A DNA stretch of 64,000 nt from Candidatus Rhabdochlamydia sp. (GCA_051648645.1 JBOFFP010000001.1:96001-160000); one strand, 5' to 3'; positions 30,470 through 40,384 are shown, counted from the stretch's first letter. The notes: generated by a model not told the origin, from the letters alone. Numbers and translations: made by a program.

Positions 30470-30503
30470 GCAGTACTTGAACCTGCGACCTACGGGTTAT
30501 GAG
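30470..30503 (-). repeat. Distal att site: displaced tRNA fragment
   Basis: gcagtacttgaacctgcgacctacgggttatgag versus tRNA gcaggacttgaacctgcgacctacgggttatgag (33/34). Confidence 0.92.
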
Positions 30504-30619
30504 GGCGCGGGAAATCCATAACAATCAGCACTATCCAATCGCTACGGGTAGCATAATAAGAGAGTTAAGAAAAAAATGCTACCGGTTTTTAATGGTTGGT
30601 AATGGATAAATTGGTAAAA

Positions 30620-30641
30620 CGTTGCACCGTCATTGCACCGC
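30620..30641 (+). repeat. Putative integrase arm-type site; exact copy at 40218-40239
   Basis: cgttgcaccgtcattgcaccgc, containing tandem TTGCACCG. Confidence 0.75.
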
Positions 30642-30740
30642 AGAACAAAAAACTTCTTTTTGTTAAAATTCTTCACATTTTAAAAGATTATAGCAGAGAA
30701 CACATTTAGACATTTCAATGAGTAAGCAATCATAAAAAAT

Positions 30741-30800
30741 CTTTATTGACTTAATCTTTATTTAACAATTAATATATTTTTTCTTTAACTAATAAAAGTT
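30741..30800 (+). promoter_or_regulatory. Putative promoter block homologous to 14489-14547
   Basis: ctttattgacttaatctttatttaacaattaatatattttttctttaactaataaaagtt. Confidence 0.65.
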
Positions 30801-30841
30801 ATAAGTATGTTTCTTTTAAATATAAAGAGCAGGAGAAATAA

Positions 30842-32281
30842 GTGACAATTTCCAGAATTTTAAATAGCTTCAATTTTTTTTACACGCCACGAATACAAGC
30901 AGAACCACAAATACAAACAGAAATAAAACCAGAGAATACAGTTCATACTTGGCATTTAGCAAATGGAAGTAAAGCTTATCTCATTCGCAATAATGACGTG
31001 CTTGAATGCCAGCTCATAAATGGCCAAGATAGCATTAAAGTCCAAGTTCCTTTTCCTGATTTTCTCACTCCAGAAGAAGCTATCAATCTTTTACTGAGAA
31101 AGTATCCCATTCTTCGAGAGAATGATACTATTGACTTCATAGAGAATGAAGAAGAGCTTCATACATGGGATGTGAAATATGAAAATCCTGTTAGTGCTGT
31201 TCGCGTCGGCGAAGATTTGTATTATAGAACTATGTGGGAAGGACCTCAAGGAGAAAAAGATTTGGTAATAGAAAAAATTTCTATGCCAAAGAACTTATCA
31301 TTATCAGAACGGATTGCATGGGTTATGGAAAGACATCCTCATGTTTATCAGGCAACAAAACGCCTTTCTGGTCAGCCTAAACAGTCAACTTGTATTGTTG
31401 AATTTAAGGAAAAAATAACACAGGAAAAAAGTGCTGTAGATGGAAAGACTCCGTTGGATATGAATAATTGGTGCGTAACCATGTTAAACGCTGAAAACAG
31501 TAATTCCTTCCCTTGTACTTGGGTAGGACATGCCTCGCTTGTAATAGAGACAATTGAAGAAGGAGGATATTTTTCTAGAGTCGTTCATCTCACAAAAGAA
31601 AATGGAATAGGAGTTATTAAATTTTTGGAAGCTTCGCGAGAAAGTGTAAAAAAACGAGCAAAAGAGGTTTCGAAAACTGAAACTTGGAGCAGACCTAAGG
31701 AAGACATTCAAAAGATGATAAATCAAATCTTTCTAGAAGTTACTCATCAGAAAAACGGAGATCCTTTGGTATTTTTTAAGCTTGACAGTGGCAAGATGCT
31801 AGAACTGGTAAGATGATCAGCACTTAAGCTTCATGGGCCTTCTAATAGCTTTACCCCGTTATCTGATGCGGTTAAACAAAGAATCAACAGGGAGGATGTA
31901 GCTGCAGTTCCTTTGGAAGAAAATTACATGGATGAGTACAACTGTATAGAGTATTCTATTAGAAATTTATCTATAGCAAATATAAAAGTTCTTCTAAGAT
32001 CTGGATGCCTTTTAAGCAAGACATGTTGGCCAACGCCGGTGCTCTATACTGGATCTAGAGTTAAAGCATTAGTACAAGAAGCAAGTCTAATTACTTCTTA
32101 TACGACACTATTTGCTGGAAGTGCTGCTTTGTGGGGTACTCTTATTGCTGGTCGCACCGGTGCTGGAATAGCTGCTACGCTTGGTGCTGGTTTTGCTCTA
32201 AGAGAAATTTTCTATGCATATAAAATAGAACCTCCTTCAAAACAAGAATTAGAAACAAAAGAGGAAGAAAAAAAAGCATGA
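30842..32281 (+). pseudogene. Effector-like gene (shared N-terminal repeat domain, possible permuted papain-like domain, C-terminal TM) interrupted by an in-frame TGA at 31814-31816
   Basis: Frame stays open after the TGA (SALKLHG...) into ORF 31913..32281; VHTWHLANGSKAYLI...FPDF; GHASL...YNC. Confidence 0.7.
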
Positions 32282-37987: not shown

Positions 37988-38059
37988 GGGTAACTCCTAT
38001 GTTAAATAATAAAGAATTATCCTTGTTGTACTGGATCCTACTGATTTATCTTGGGCACG

Positions 38060-39088
38060 CTATGGGACAGGTTTTTTATAACGAACATGCCCTTCAAGCG
38101 GGTGAGGACTTGATAAAAAAGTTAAAAACGTGATTTTACCTAACTGAGGTGGAAGATTAGCTTTATGAATAGCCTTATTAAGGGCCCGACGCAAATCATG
38201 TATTGTACCTTGCAAAATGTTCTTTCTAGGGCAAGAAGAAGGAATCTTTGCTACCAGTTCAAAAAACTGCGCTATGCGATGAGAAATCCTAATTTTTTGT
38301 TTTCCAAAATCACTGGGAATCAATAACTCAGGATAGTTACCATTTAATATAAGAGCATTCCTTTGTATGGCATGAATGCTTTTTAAAGAGAATGGAAGCC
38401 TAATGCGAGAAGCAATTAAGCAAAGCCACGTTAAAGATAGAGCTTCGACTATATTAAGCAGGGCATCGGGACGGCCATAGATGACTTGCTGGGCTAATGC
38501 CTTTATGATATCTGCTATAACTTCTTTTGAAACAGGATAGACCTGTGGCTGAACGAGTTTAATAATCTTTCCATAATGAAGATCCATTTTTTCGGGAAAG
38601 AGATGCTCTATGAAAGCCACTTCGTTTTGCTTATGGAATTTCTTTAGATAGGTTAAAAAGGCTTTTAAAGCTCTCTTGTTTTTTTTCTGTTTCCATCCAT
38701 GATTTTCGACTAGCTGGGCATATCGCTGAATATAATCCACAAGAGTTTCTTTTTCTTGCGGTTTTATCAAGTCCTCTTGAGTAAAATCAAGATAAGAATT
38801 CTCTAAAACATAATCTTCCCATTTAGAATAGGAAATCGAAGCTAAACTTTTGGCGATTTTAGAGCTCTCAAGGGTAGGATACAGCCCACTTTCTAGCTCT
38901 ATCTTCTCTTGTGTGTTGCATGTTCCATGTATCCAAAATTGCGCCTCTTCTTTTCTCCAGTCTTTTTCTGATAGCTGTTCTATGTGAGGGTTACATTCTT
39001 TTAATCCATCCCATACCTTTCTTGAGATGCTAATATCTTGATGCAATTCGTCAATAATTTTCTGCAAAGCAAAGTACTCATTACCCAT
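38060..39088 (-). CDS. Hypothetical protein coupled to the integrase; C-terminus reminiscent of a degenerate tyrosine recombinase fold
   Basis: ATG at 39088 overlaps the integrase end; LRRALNKAIHKANL....ITF. Confidence 0.6.
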   Translation of the reverse strand: MGNEYFALQKIIDELHQDISISRKVWDGLKECNPHIEQLSEKDWRKEEAQFWIHGTCNTQEKIELESGLYPTLESSKIAKSLASISYSKWEDYVLENSYLDFTQEDLIKPQEKETLVDYIQRYAQLVENHGWKQKKNKRALKAFLTYLKKFHKQNEVAFIEHLFPEKMDLHYGKIIKLVQPQVYPVSKEVIADIIKALAQQVIYGRPDALLNIVEALSLTWLCLIASRIRLPFSLKSIHAIQRNALILNGNYPELLIPSDFGKQKIRISHRIAQFFELVAKIPSSCPRKNILQGTIHDLRRALNKAIHKANLPPQLGKITFLTFLSSPHPLEGHVRYKKPVP

Positions 39089-40151
39089 TGTTTTTCCCCT
39101 GTAAAATTCTTTGTTCAATCGATTCTCCAATGAAACGCGTAGCATCTGCTTCTAAATGAGAGTAGTGATCCGTCATTCGCGAAGAAGAATGACCAAGCTG
39201 TGCTCGTAGCTGTACTCCTGAAGCTCCCATTTCTCCACCAATGGAACAAAAATGATGACGCAGGCCATGAAATACAAAATCTTTAATGTCAGCTTGCTGT
39301 AGGGCATTTTGCCAGGCTTTCTTGATATCGGTTTTCCCAAAAGCTGTTCTGCTGGAAAAAACAAGAGGTTTAGATGAACTTCGTCGAGACCAGAGGTCTC
39401 TTAGTTCTGTTAATACCGAATCTACTAAGCCCACTTTTCGAGGCTTTCCATTCTTAGAATCTTTAATGAACGCAAGGCGGTTCTCAAAATGAATACAGTC
39501 CCACGTTAAATTCAAAATTTCTCCTTTTCTAGCTCCCGTTGTTAGACCTATTAAAGTAATGCAATACAAGTAAGGATTTTTACTCTTTTTACACGCTGCT
39601 AAAAGTCTGAGTTCTTCTTCACTTGTAAGCATCCTTCTTTTACGAGGGTTTTCCTTCAGCTTCAAAAGATTGGTGCAAGGATTGTCATCGATCCATCGCA
39701 GATTGCGACAGGCGTACCTTAAGAGCCCGCTAAGAGAAGAAAAATAGCGGTTAGCAGTAGATGTAGTTCGTGATTTGCCTTGTAGCTTGGCAGTTTGTAG
39801 AAGCTTTTTACGTTCGTTTGTTAGAAGCTCTGGTGTGACATAGGTAAGAGCATAGCTTCCTATTGTAGATTTAAAGTACTCAAGATGTCTCTTGGTATCT
39901 TTAGCTGATTTGTGATGATGAAGAGCACCATCTTGGGTATAAGAATCAATTAAATCAGAAACCGTTTTCTTTTGGTTCTGTTTCCCAAAACTGTATTTCC
40001 CAAGCTTGATTTGCCTTGTCGTTTCGTAAGACCAATCCAGTGCTTCTTGTTTTCTTTCAAAGTGATCGCATACCGTCGGGTAGCCTTTCATGCGAATTAC
40101 AGCTCGCCAGACCTTAGTTCCATCTTTATTTATTCTTTGATAGACTGCCAT
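39081..40151 (-). CDS. int: Tyrosine recombinase/integrase
   Basis: TGARKGEI, SKNG, FHGLRHHF, LGHSS..MT.HYSH; adjacent to the tRNA. Confidence 0.95.
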   Translation of the reverse strand: MAVYQRINKDGTKVWRAVIRMKGYPTVCDHFERKQEALDWSYETTRQIKLGKYSFGKQNQKKTVSDLIDSYTQDGALHHHKSAKDTKRHLEYFKSTIGSYALTYVTPELLTNERKKLLQTAKLQGKSRTTSTANRYFSSLSGLLRYACRNLRWIDDNPCTNLLKLKENPRKRRMLTSEEELRLLAACKKSKNPYLYCITLIGLTTGARKGEILNLTWDCIHFENRLAFIKDSKNGKPRKVGLVDSVLTELRDLWSRRSSSKPLVFSSRTAFGKTDIKKAWQNALQQADIKDFVFHGLRHHFCSIGGEMGASGVQLRAQLGHSSSRMTDHYSHLEADATRFIGESIEQRILQGKNNG

Positions 40152-40217
40152 AACTCAAACCTCTTTTTTATTGTTTTGGTTCGAGCGATTGAAATGGTGC
40201 TTGTAAAGATTGTTTTT

Positions 40218-40239
40218 CGTTGCACCGTCATTGCACCGC
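40218..40239 (+). repeat. Putative integrase arm-type site; copy of 30620-30641
   Basis: cgttgcaccgtcattgcaccgc. Confidence 0.75.
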
Positions 40240-40310
40240 CAAAACAAAATTAGAGTGGATTGTTGGACTTAAGTCAAGCTAAAACCTGCTCACAGATACT
40301 TGTGAAGAAG

Positions 40311-40384
40311 TGGGGCAAGCAGGACTTGAACCTGCGACCTACGGGTTATGAGTCCGCTGCTCTAACCAACTGAGCTATTGCCCC
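40311..40384 (-). tRNA. tRNA with CAT anticodon (elongator Met or Ile2)
   Basis: GGGGCAATAGCTCAGTTGGTTAGAGCAGCGGACTCATAACCCGTAGGTCGCAGGTTCAAGTCCTGCTTGCCCCA folds as a cloverleaf. Confidence 0.95.

What the first reader, a model, noticed from the sequence alone, without database searches (positions are those of the whole stretch)
30470..40352. PICI/phage-satellite-like island in a chlamydia
Seen: att duplication of the tRNA, an intact integrase, then co-oriented unknown gene, xis/AlpA-like, DUF927 helicase, iterons, P4-type primase and TerS-like gene, with distal cargo; about 9.9 kb and no capsid or tail genes. Known: this size and gene set match Gram-negative PICIs, which hijack tailed helper phages through TerS; described chlamydial phages are microviruses without terminases. 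Inference: evidence for an unknown tailed helper phage or GTA-like particle in Chlamydiota, and a route for effector transfer.
Basis: partly seen in the sequence, partly recalled or inferred. Interest (0 to 1): 0.85.

Follow-up and report, generated by a model that had tools for sequence, protein, structure and literature searches.

The report
Phage-satellite-like island in a chlamydia
A 9.8-kb mobile island beside a methionine tRNA gene of a Rhabdochlamydia-like chlamydia carries its own integration and DNA-copying genes plus a phage-type DNA-packaging gene but no virus-shell genes, and relatives are common in environmental chlamydiae, which hints at still-unknown tailed phages in this group.

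Summary
A tRNA-Met gene (40310-40384) and a 39-nt partial copy (30470-30508) bracket a 9.85-kb island. It carries an intact tyrosine integrase, a second and very divergent recombinase-fold protein, a weak HTH_17 protein, a DUF927 helicase, eight 10-bp iterons, a DnaG-type primase, a small-terminase-family protein and four unknown cargo genes. No capsid, tail, lysis, relaxase or type IV secretion gene is present.

The TerS-like call is supported by a PHROG profile, by fold searches, and by distant relatives that sit directly before TerL and portal genes in viral contigs.

The gene recurs in 48 of 400 sampled genomes of the phylum. There it lies in tRNA-bounded islands of 7.6-13 kb with exchangeable integrases and replicases.

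This copy is decaying. Its primase has a private in-frame stop, and its distal att copy lacks the tRNA end.

No helper was found: TerL, portal, HK97 capsid, relaxase and coupling protein are all missing from this genome. A satellite (PICI/SaPI-like) lifestyle is therefore the best reading, at about 0.45, but it is not shown. Transfer by another route remains a serious rival.

A second family of capsid-less mini-islands, carrying an intact terminase, occurs in 28 of 401 genomes.

The parts
40310..40384 (-). tRNA-Met(CAT), the integration target. Its 3' part adjoins the island.
   Evidence: ARAGORN. The tRNA and the right flank are conserved in 9 of 9 genomes of the genus.
40319..40357 (.). att core copy inside the tRNA, at the integrase-proximal junction.
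   Evidence: 39-nt direct repeat with 30470-30508, 36 of 39 identical.
40218..40249 (.). Candidate arm-type integrase sites (2 x TTGCACCG) between the tRNA and int.
   Evidence: Repeat D8. The motif occurs only 4 times in the window, all at the two island ends.
39081..40151 (-). Tyrosine integrase, 356 aa, intact.
   Evidence: PF00589 E 2e-29 and phrog_1 E 1.9e-60. It is the only copy in the genome by tblastn.
38060..39088 (-). Divergent protein with a tyrosine-recombinase fold (342 aa as called, 361 aa from the first start). Its catalytic motifs are not conserved. Candidate regulator or recombination accessory factor.
37670..37987 (-). Small HTH protein, a weak match to the HTH_17 / excisionase-AlpA class.
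   Evidence: PF12728 E 3e-3, 18.1 bits, below the cut-off. tblastn finds homologues in 9 of 20 related loci. The counterpart in L029 passes the cut-off at 28.2 bits.
35798..37609 (-). DUF927 replicative helicase (603 aa) with Walker A (GASSTGKT) and Walker B (LLCLDE) motifs.
   Evidence: PF06048 E 1.7e-89; phrog_1139 E 1.2e-105; NCBIfam SCC Cch1 helicase E 6e-20, below its cut-off. The motifs were read in the translation.
35533..35777 (.). Iteron cluster, the candidate replication origin: 8 copies of GTTTCCACAG in both orientations.
   Evidence: Two other samples lack one 9-nt unit at 35746.
34503..35492 (-). DnaG-type primase (zinc ribbon plus Toprim) interrupted by one in-frame TAG at 35157-35159.
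   Evidence: PF08273 E 2.6e-12; Toprim_2 and DNAG_N weak; phrog_47 E 2.6e-19. One frame with a single stop. Relatives have one ORF of 329-347 aa. All 4 runs laid read a sense codon at this place.
34124..34492 (-). Small-terminase-family protein (122 aa): an N-terminal HTH followed by two long helices.
   Evidence: phrog_2538 E 8.5e-12, plus three further TerS PHROGs. PF13022 scores 27.8 bits against a cut-off of 27.9. Model pLDDT 90.
33892..34149 (-). Small ORF overlapping the end of the TerS-like gene. It is weakly related to the roughly 88-107-aa ORF that follows the TerS-like gene in other islands.
   Evidence: 82% and about 70% identical in G317 and G079. blastp to counterparts gives E 0.038-0.14, while the counterparts match each other at down to 4.5e-14.
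30842..33564 (.). Cargo: four genes of unknown function at 30842-31816 (+), 31913-32281 (+), 32278-33186 (+, with an internal duplication) and 33229-33564 (-).
   Evidence: No convincing family and no ESM Atlas hit. A paralogous set in the same order lies at G000:C1:352.8-358.7 kb, next to a second att-like end.
30620..30651 (.). Candidate arm-type integrase sites (2 x TTGCACCG) at the distal end.
30470..30508 (.). Distal att core: a partial tRNA-Met copy with 3 mismatches that lacks the last 9 nt of the tRNA.

Best explanation
This is a decaying copy of a widespread chlamydial family of small, tRNA-integrating, self-replicating islands of 7.6-13 kb.

Shown:
- A tyrosine integrase, with arm-type sites on both sides of a core inside tRNA-Met, sets the island boundaries.
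- A DUF927 helicase, an iteron origin and a DnaG-type primase form a replicon.
- A conserved protein of a small-terminase family follows the replicon.
- Cargo genes fill the distal end.

Inferred mechanism: after excision by the integrase, helped by the small HTH protein and possibly by the catalytically degenerate recombinase-fold protein as regulator, the circle replicates from the iterons. The TerS-like protein then marks the island DNA for packaging by the large terminase and capsids of a tailed helper phage that is not encoded in this genome. That would make it a SaPI-type PICI-like satellite.

In this genome the element is probably no longer autonomous. Its primase carries a private nonsense codon and its distal att copy is degenerate.
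For: Anatomy.

TerS-like assignment:
- Four TerS PHROGs match, the best at 8.5e-12.
- In the PDB, the 10 best Foldseek rows are 8 chains of 2ao9 (phBC6A51 phage protein) and the PaP3 and NV1 small terminases.
- In BFVD the best hit has TM 0.70 and rmsd 2.4 over 104 columns, and 13 of the 22 named rows among the top 50 are small terminase, gp3 or phBC6A51-type.
- In IMG/VR, distant relatives sit directly before a TerL-family gene in 7 of 11 loci that had downstream ORFs, with a portal gene in 5 of 11.

Family:
- The gene is found in 48 of 400 genomes and 40 of 212 genera of the phylum sample. 60 of the 69 matches are open.
- In 9 of 20 fetched loci it directly follows the replicase or primase on the same strand (12 of 20 counting three cases with caveats). 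The replicase type varies among DUF927, DUF3987, DUF5906, AAA_25, DnaB and PolA plus primase-polymerase.
- Seven islands are bounded by 42-45-nt copies of the tRNA 3' end, six of them 100% identical, at tRNA-Met, Asn, Thr, Lys and Phe, with sizes of 7.6-13.0 kb.
- 0 of 296 ORFs in these loci match virion, relaxase or T4SS families.

Mobility:
- In run X4, a contig joins the integrase end to the cargo end through a core-like sequence at depth 15.9. The island there has depth 10-14 and the flanks 0-3.
- In run X2, the left flank is joined to the tRNA-proximal region with 784 nt in place of the island.
- The island core has 39.8% GC against 35.5% for the genome.

Context: intact TerL genes in capsid-less mini-islands occur in 28 of 401 genomes of the phylum. 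Terminase-dependent packaging is therefore represented in chlamydial chromosomes.
Against: - No helper is known or found. PF03354, PF05065 and PF04860 are absent from this 93%-complete genome, and PF03237 gives only a 16-bit match below its cut-off.
- 0 of 8 other genomes of the genus hold PF03237 or PF05065.
- Only 5 of 401 genomes hold an HK97 capsid. Two of those six loci have about 70% GC and so look like binning contamination.
- The TerS-like gene does not co-occur with TerL (5 of 48 genomes, about 3.4 expected).
- PF13022 falls 0.1 bit under its cut-off.
- tblastn finds no relative in 50,697 deposited phage genomes.
- The protein is not detectably related to the small ORF beside the chlamydial TerL (hhalign probability 0.2%).
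- The contigs cannot tell a circle from a tandem array, and tandem arrays do exist (G079).
- No pac or cos site was identified.
Confidence: 0.45

Rival explanations
1. An integrative, self-replicating island that spreads without capsids. It could be taken up as excised circles through chlamydial DNA uptake, or hitch on the F-type conjugation systems of chlamydiae through an unrecognised oriT (an iOriT-like IME). On this reading the TerS-like protein is a DNA-binding accessory of replication, partition or regulation.
For: - No helper phage genes are found in the genome or the genus.
- F-type TraC is present in 41 of 401 genomes of the phylum.
- Relaxase-free islands carrying only an oriT are reported to be common (abstract of bioRxiv 10.64898/2026.01.13.699239).
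- The TerS-like gene keeps its place beside the replicase whatever the replicase type, which would also suit a replication accessory.
Against: - TraC is absent from this genome and from 0 of 8 genus relatives. Only 3 of 48 genomes with the TerS-like gene hold TraC, against about 4.9 expected.
- No TrwC, MOB relaxase or coupling protein is found in this genome. PF08751, PF03432 and PF02534 give no match, and PF10412 gives only matches of 15-16 bits below its cut-off.
- All sequence, fold and context evidence places the protein with small terminases.
- No replication or partition role is known for this family (recalled).
Confidence: 0.33
2. A domesticated or dead relic. On this reading the island family was mobile in the past, but this copy and its relatives in the genus are now fixed chromosomal cargo carriers, and the core genes are drifting to loss.
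For: - The primase has a private stop, while all 4 laid runs read a sense codon there.
- The distal att copy has 3 mismatches and lacks the tRNA 3' end.
- G057 keeps only the first 88 codons of the integrase, fused next to a cargo homologue.
- A second att-like end with a cargo set, but no integrase, lies elsewhere in this genome.
- An IS1 fragment abuts the island.
Against: - The integrase, helicase and TerS-like ORFs are intact here.
- Six related islands have 100% identical att repeats.
- Modules are shuffled among genomes: an 83%-identical TerS-like gene sits with a 32%-identical integrase in G079.
- A junction of the circle or tandem type is seen in run X4.
- This reading concerns the state of this one copy. 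It does not explain how the family moves.
Confidence: 0.12
3. Remnant of a tailed prophage that lost its structural genes by deletion.
For: The integrase, the primase-helicase and the TerS-like gene all match phage protein families.
Against: - The same capsid-less layout recurs within exact att repeats in seven islands of 7.6-13 kb.
- None of 296 ORFs in 20 loci matches a virion family.
- Independent deletions would not give the same compact, bounded element again and again.
Confidence: 0.04

Closest known systems
SaPI-type PICIs (phage-inducible chromosomal islands that encode their own small terminase), as modelled in SatelliteFinder (de Sousa et al. 2023, PMC10085698; passages read)
   Same: Integrase at one end, a small regulator or HTH, a primase-replicase with an iteron origin, then a small-terminase gene, then accessory genes. 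Size is about 10 kb. There are no tail, holin, portal or connector genes, and tandem arrays form at one att site.
   Different: - No capsid-morphogenesis gene is present.
- The regulator is only weakly AlpA/HTH_17-like, and a second recombinase-fold protein follows int.
- The host phylum has no known tailed phage. In that study more than 99.9% of 1436 PICIs were in Proteobacteria or Firmicutes, and 'Chlamydi' does not occur in its main text.
- Induction and packaging are untested.
P4-like satellites and PICMIs (the latter recalled, not read here)
   Same: Small integrase plus AlpA-type regulator plus primase-helicase islands that depend on a helper for particles.
   Different: From recall, P4 uses cos sites with Sid, Psu and Delta and has no TerS, and PICMIs carry no packaging gene. 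The island here has a TerS-family gene and a DUF927 helicase separate from a DnaG-type primase.
SCCmec-type cassette replicons (Cch/DUF927 helicase)
   Same: A DUF927-family helicase in a small integrative element (NCBIfam SCC Cch1, E 6e-20).
   Different: The score of 71 bits is far below the family cut-off of 700. The recombinase is of the tyrosine type rather than the serine type (from recall, SCC uses serine recombinases). A TerS-like gene and iterons are present here.
Genomic islands reported in Protochlamydia naegleriophila (PMC5010888; passages read)
   Same: Small islands at tRNA genes of environmental chlamydiae. [quoted passage not shown]
   Different: In the passages read, these were described only as islands. 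No replicon, TerS-like gene, family-wide architecture or satellite reading was given. Their supplementary gene tables were not seen, and homology to this island was not tested.
SPbeta-family master repressors MrpR/YopR/SroF (tyrosine-recombinase fold without recombination); these bear on the 342-aa protein only

Membership tests
PICI (SatelliteFinder core set, PMC10085698) | Integrase | tested here: met
   PF00589 E 2e-29, 356 aa, intact.
PICI (SatelliteFinder core set, PMC10085698) | Regulation module homologous to alpA, merR or stl | tested here: inconclusive
   HTH_17 matches at E 3e-3 and 18.1 bits, under the cut-off of 27. There is no Phage_AlpA match. A counterpart in L029 passes the cut-off. 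SatelliteFinder's own profiles were not available.
PICI (SatelliteFinder core set, PMC10085698) | Primase-replicase module with origin | tested here: met
   DUF927 helicase at E 1.7e-89, DnaG-type primase domains and 8 iterons. The primase is interrupted by one stop in this copy.
PICI (SatelliteFinder core set, PMC10085698) | Capsid-morphogenesis gene | tested here: not met
   None of the 13 island ORFs has a head-related match other than the TerS-like gene. The paper notes that SaPI-type PICIs also lack this gene.
PICI (SatelliteFinder core set, PMC10085698) | Small terminase subunit | tested here: met
   phrog_2538 at E 8.5e-12; fold and viral-context support. The assignment is to a TerS family; the activity is untested.
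PICI (SatelliteFinder core set, PMC10085698) | No tail, holin, portal or head-tail connector genes (forbidden components) | tested here: met
   No such match in the 13 island ORFs or in 296 ORFs of 20 related loci.
PICI (functional definition) | Induced by a helper phage and packaged in its particles | not testable with these tools
   No helper was identified. Contigs of run X4 show a junction of the circle or tandem type only.
Integrative mobilisable or conjugative element (IME/ICE) | Relaxase, coupling protein or mating-pair genes | tested here: not met
   None in the island or in 296 ORFs of 20 loci. In this genome PF08751, PF03432, PF02534 and PF11130 give no match, and PF10412 gives only matches of 15-16 bits below its cut-off.
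Integrative mobilisable or conjugative element (IME/ICE) | oriT recognised by a co-resident conjugative element (iOriT type) | not testable with these tools
   No oriT library for chlamydiae was at hand. TraC co-occurs with the TerS-like gene in only 3 of 48 genomes.
Tailed prophage | Large terminase, portal, major capsid and tail genes | tested here: not met
   Absent from the island. PF03354, PF05065 and PF04860 are absent from the genome, and PF03237 is seen only below its cut-off.
Tyrosine recombinase (for the 342-aa protein) | Catalytic domain fold | tested here: met
Tyrosine recombinase (for the 342-aa protein) | Conserved catalytic residues (HxxR box and the nucleophilic Tyr) | tested here: not met
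   Judged by eye on alignment A2 (28 sequences) without a structure-based residue mapping. The Arg of the putative HxxR box is replaced in a subset (…SLDQ…/…SLTR…), and the terminal Tyr position is not conserved.

The most novel reading that the evidence does not exclude
Environmental and arthropod-associated chlamydiae host two undescribed families of capsid-less hitchers. One family has about 10-kb islands with their own replicon and a small-terminase gene (48 of 400 genomes). The other has about 5-kb islands carrying an intact large terminase, a small partner ORF, a ParB-methyltransferase, a resolvase-like protein and an integrase (28 of 401 genomes; the partner ORF is 81-89% identical across families). 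Together they would imply that tailed phages, or phage-derived transfer particles, circulate among obligate intracellular chlamydiae and move defence genes and eukaryote-like genes between them.
Probability: 0.35. Interest if true: 0.85.

Novelty: new variant of a known kind. Interest (0 to 1): 0.66.

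Why it matters
From recall, the only isolated phages of chlamydiae are small ssDNA microviruses, and horizontal transfer in these obligate intracellular bacteria is poorly understood. A common family of bounded islands with a replicon and a terminase-family gene makes one question directly testable: do tailed phages or transfer particles act inside chlamydial inclusions?

In relatives the islands carry toxin-antitoxin, restriction, DarTG, AbiU2 and BREX/DISARM-like genes, and also ankyrin, U-box and ubiquitin-hydrolase genes. 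They are therefore plausible vehicles for defence factors and host-interaction factors.

The integrase/att pair and the small iteron replicon could also become genetic tools for organisms that are hard to manipulate.

Three library searches for the topic found no paper describing phage satellites in chlamydiae: 'phage satellites' + PICI + Chlamydi gave 0 papers, and chlamydiae + prophage + terminase and chlamydiae + Caudoviricetes gave none in their listings.

Tried and rejected
- tblastn of the TerS-like protein against 50,697 phage records found nothing. A scan of IMG/VR with the single protein also found nothing. Alignment A1 was too diverse for the pattern scan, whereas the narrower alignment A4 worked.
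- A sequence-profile search of the PDB matched only designed HEAT/ARM-repeat proteins, through a single repeat-like motif in the C-terminal half. No terminase matched by sequence.
- hhalign between the TerS-like family and the 162-aa ORF beside the chlamydial TerL showed no relation.
- PHROGs found nothing for the small ORF after the TerS-like gene, the 342-aa protein or the HTH protein, even at E up to 1.
- The ESM Atlas gave no usable hit for two cargo proteins.
- The HK97 capsid hits in the phylum were followed to two contigs. One has 69% GC and was rejected as contamination. The other is a 16.7-kb contig of 47% GC that also holds a TerL. It was not annotated further.
- No run held half or more of the island's words. 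The four runs laid are contigs only, so starts, ends and circle-versus-tandem could not be read.
- The profile search over 1.84 billion representatives shows that the protein family is large: 17,164 clusters at E<=1e-3, 5,694 at <=1e-10 and 88 at <=1e-30. None of the ten clusters looked up gave an informative name or a taxon; the only name given was 'hypothetical protein'.
- The scan's earlier notes hold nothing for this genome or this sequence.

Full report
**What is there**

The window lies in a 1.67-Mb, 12-contig genome of 35.5% GC. The nearest named relatives of its island proteins come from Candidatus Rhabdochlamydia, Chlamydiales and Parachlamydiales MAGs.

ARAGORN finds tRNA-Met(CAT) at 40310-40384 on the minus strand. 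A 39-nt stretch of it (40319-40357, T arm to anticodon stem) recurs at 30470-30508 with 36 of 39 matches, a spacing of 9,849 bp.

The octamer TTGCACCG occurs only four times in the 64-kb window (0.84 expected; none of 100 shuffles reaches four). The four copies form two tandem pairs, each just inside one island end. I read them as arm-type integrase sites on the P and P' arms. That reading is an inference.

Running from the tRNA, all on the minus strand, the island holds:
- an intact tyrosine integrase (PF00589, E 2e-29);
- a 342/361-aa protein with no sequence family;
- a small HTH protein with a weak HTH_17 match;
- a 603-aa DUF927 helicase (E 1.7e-89) with Walker A and B motifs;
- an intergenic region with eight copies of GTTTCCACAG in both orientations;
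- a DnaG-type primase (zinc ribbon plus Toprim);
- a 122-aa protein that matches four 'terminase small subunit' PHROGs (best 8.5e-12);
- an overlapping 85-aa ORF;
- four unexplained cargo genes.

None of the 13 ORFs matches a capsid, portal, tail, lysis, relaxase or secretion family. The island core has 39.8% GC and the cargo 35.0%.

**Corrections to the observation**

- The primase is a single reading frame cut by one TAG. Relatives have an uninterrupted 329-347-aa gene. All four public runs that could be laid on the island read a sense codon at that place. The stop is therefore private to this genome.
- The distal att copy lacks the last 9 nt of the tRNA and has three mismatches. Related islands carry 42-45-nt copies that run to the tRNA 3' end and are 100% identical in six cases.
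- An IS1 transposase fragment abuts the distal end.
- The 97-aa ORF across the iterons is an artefact of the repeats.

**Is the HTH protein TerS-like?**

Three lines of evidence agree, though each is moderate.

1. Profiles. Four TerS PHROGs match. PF13022 (phBC6A51-type HTH) scores 27.8 bits against a cut-off of 27.9, and it passes the cut-off in several homologues.
2. Fold. A model of pLDDT 90 shows a three-helix HTH followed by two long helices.
   - The ten best Foldseek rows in the PDB are eight chains of 2ao9 and the PaP3 and NV1 small terminases, and Sf6 TerS is at rank 36. E-values are only 0.02-0.2 for the top rows.
   - Among predicted viral structures the best hit has TM 0.70 and rmsd 2.4, and many named hits are small terminases.
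3. Context. Of 40 IMG/VR loci with a relative, I annotated 14. Eleven of them had ORFs downstream of the relative. In 7 of these 11 the relative directly precedes a TerL-family gene, and in 5 of 11 a portal gene follows.

The one full-length relative (37% identity) lies in an 11.8-kb 'viral' contig of 29.5% GC. That contig again holds replication genes, toxin-antitoxin genes and an integrase, but no virion gene.

Against this reading: no relative exists in 50,697 deposited phage genomes, and the fold is simple.

The family is large and unnamed, with 5,694 50%-identity clusters at E<=1e-10.

**The family in chlamydiae**

The TerS-like gene is found in 48 of 400 scored genomes of the phylum sample: 40 of 212 genera, and 16 of 89 in the window's own family. 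Some genomes hold up to five copies. 60 of the 69 matches are open.

I fetched 20 loci and scanned 296 ORFs against Pfam.
- In 9 loci the gene directly follows the replicase or primase on the same strand. The count is 12 with three caveated cases: an unknown 719-aa protein, an IS insertion, and two extra ORFs.
- In the other 8 loci it is inverted, separated, or sits in IS-ridden or decayed DNA.
- The replicase varies (DUF927, DUF3987, DUF5906, AAA_25, DnaB-like, PolA plus primase-polymerase) and so does the integrase. In G079, for example, an 83%-identical TerS-like gene travels with a 32%-identical integrase.
- A small ORF of about 85-107 aa follows the gene in 9 of the 20 loci and in the window. 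The window's ORF is only marginally similar to the others.
- Cargo includes toxin-antitoxin pairs, PvuII restriction-modification, DarTG, AbiU2, HEPN/MNT and DUF1156/SNF2/PLD sets. It also includes ankyrin, U-box, ubiquitin-hydrolase and kinase-like proteins.
- No ORF matches a virion, relaxase, coupling-protein or T4SS family.

Ten of 18 loci scanned have a tRNA gene beside the integrase: Met, Asn, Thr, Phe or Lys. Seven islands are bounded by tRNA 3'-end repeats that give sizes of 7.6-13.0 kb, and several sites hold tandem arrays.

**State and mobility of this copy**

- The tRNA and the right flank are conserved in 9 of 9 genomes of the genus.
- G057 keeps only the first 88 integrase codons (94% identical), fused beside a homologue of the last cargo gene.
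- G079 has a tandem pair of islands at the same tRNA.
- This genome holds a second att-like core, arm site and paralogous cargo set (41-57% identity, same order) at C1:352.8-358.7 kb, with no integrase and no tRNA there.
- Four runs from four studies hold island sequence, with most laid contigs 90-99% alike.
- In run X2, a contig joins the left flank (up to 29727) to 40152 with 784 other letters in place of the island. The helicase-to-TerS segment stands at twice the flank depth.
- In run X4, a contig runs from 40334 back to 30493 through four other letters, at depth 15.9. The island there has depth 10-14 and the window's flanks 0-3. That junction is what an excised circle or a tandem array would give, and contigs cannot tell the two apart.
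- A 9-nt iteron unit is missing in two runs.

**Search for a helper**

In this genome (93% complete):
- PF03354, PF05065, PF04860, PF08751, PF03432, PF02534 and PF11130 give no match.
- PF03237 and PF10412 give only matches below their cut-offs.

In the phylum sample:
- TerL (PF03237) occurs in 28 of 401 genomes.
- HK97 capsid occurs in 5 of 401 genomes. Two of those six loci have about 70% GC.
- F-type TraC occurs in 41 of 401 genomes.
- None of the three occurs in the 8 other genomes of the genus.
- By my comparison of the genome lists, the TerS-like gene shares 5, 0 and 3 of its 48 genomes with TerL, capsid and TraC. That is no more than chance, and relatives are not independent samples.

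A virulent helper phage would leave no trace in host genomes, so this absence does not decide the question.

**The TerL loci**

Seven of the eight TerL loci I fetched show one conserved cassette. It consists of a DUF1064 resolvase-like gene, a ParB-N/N6_N4 methyltransferase, a 162-aa ORF, an intact 449-463-aa TerL (phrog_979, E about 1e-166, both domains present), variable cargo and a 325-aa integrase. No capsid or portal gene lies within 10 kb. The 162-aa ORF is 81-89% identical to the first sequence (mean column identity 92%) across three chlamydial families, which suggests recent transfer.

**Literature**

- Passages in PMC5010888 report small tRNA-linked islands in Protochlamydia naegleriophila. 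One holds a terminase large subunit, and another is an 11.3-kb island at tRNA-Met.
- Passages in PMC7846284 report a 'phage group' (terminase, tail tip protein L) on two chlamydial plasmids.
- A passage in PMC12644861 mentions unclassified viruses predicted to infect Chlamydiales.
- The main text of PMC9723776, on Rhabdochlamydiaceae, does not contain 'phage', 'genomic island', 'primase' or 'conjugat'.
- PMC10085698 defines the five PICI core components, reports more than 99.9% of its 1436 PICIs in Proteobacteria or Firmicutes, and does not mention chlamydiae in its main text.
- No paper in the library combines phage satellites, PICI and Chlamydi*.
- Supplementary gene tables of these papers were not read and might list homologues of the island genes.
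- Earlier notes of this scan describe islands with a similar layout in Planctomycetota and other phyla. I did not test them. They suggest that the layout is common and that the chlamydial host is the main point of interest here.

**Verdict**

The island is real, bounded and part of a large family that is, or recently was, mobile.

Its best mechanistic reading is a SaPI-type, PICI-like satellite that uses its own small terminase to enter capsids of an unidentified tailed phage (about 0.45). The main rival is a capsid-independent route, with the TerS-like protein in another DNA-binding role (about 0.33).

This particular copy is probably defective.

Noticed in passing
L052-L058 (G276, G111, G201, G360, G142, G088, G130), about 6,000-12,800 in each locus: A conserved capsid-less cassette sits in chlamydial chromosomes. 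It holds a DUF1064 resolvase-like gene, a ParB-N/N6_N4 methyltransferase, a 162-aa ORF, an intact TerL (449-463 aa, phrog_979 E about 1e-166), variable cargo and a 325-aa integrase. The 162-aa ORF is 81-89% identical to the first sequence across three families. TerL (PF03237) occurs in 28 of 401 genomes of the phylum sample.
   Followed up: partly
own genome G000:C1:352,800-358,700 (outside the window): A second att-like core and arm site is followed by a paralogous set of the four cargo genes (41-57% identity, same order, one of them duplicated). No integrase or tRNA gene lies there. It looks like the distal half of a lost sister island.
   Followed up: partly
window 29848-30243 (-): An IS1-family transposase fragment (zinc-binding N-terminus only) lies directly outside the distal att copy. 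It may explain the truncated att and the rearranged left flank.
   Followed up: no
window 32282-32905: The 302-aa cargo gene is an internal tandem duplication: two repeats of about 420 nt at 72-75% identity (families D1, D2, D7). Its Pfam match to SICA_alpha (24.3 bits) is probably spurious.
   Followed up: no
L070 (G057:C1), 15,455-15,924: A genome of the same genus keeps only the first 88 codons of the integrase (94% identical), joined to a homologue of the 111-aa cargo gene. This is a deletion derivative of the island at the same tRNA-Met.
   Followed up: partly
L032 6389-6461: ARAGORN calls a 'tRNA-Stop (tta)' here. The place is the 45-nt att copy of the tRNA-Lys 3' part at the far end of the island, so the call is an artefact and not a suppressor tRNA.
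   Followed up: yes
L085 (IMG/VR contig, 11,793 nt, 29.5% GC): This contig is filed as viral. It holds a Rep_O-like protein, a Toprim-DnaB primase-helicase, a full-length relative of the TerS-like protein (37% identity, PF13022 at 38.5 bits), toxin-antitoxin genes and an integrase, but no virion gene. The same satellite-like layout therefore occurs in an unknown low-GC host.
   Followed up: partly
L037 11,642-16,937 and L040 7,973-11,860: The cargo of two related islands includes GNAT acetyltransferases, APH-type phosphotransferases, a chloramphenicol-phosphotransferase-like protein and a transpeptidase-domain protein. These could be antibiotic-modifying genes. Their function was not examined.
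   Followed up: no
window 34152-37641, as seen in run X2: In one metagenome the helicase-primase-TerS segment stands at twice the depth of the integrase segment and of the chromosomal flanks (754 against 365-385). This would fit two islands sharing one core module, or an extra copy.
   Followed up: no
TerS-like protein, residues about 69-100: The C-terminal half carries a motif (AV.TLV.LLD..NP..QR.VANDIL) that resembles one HEAT/ARM repeat. As a result, a PDB profile search returns only designed repeat proteins.
   Followed up: no
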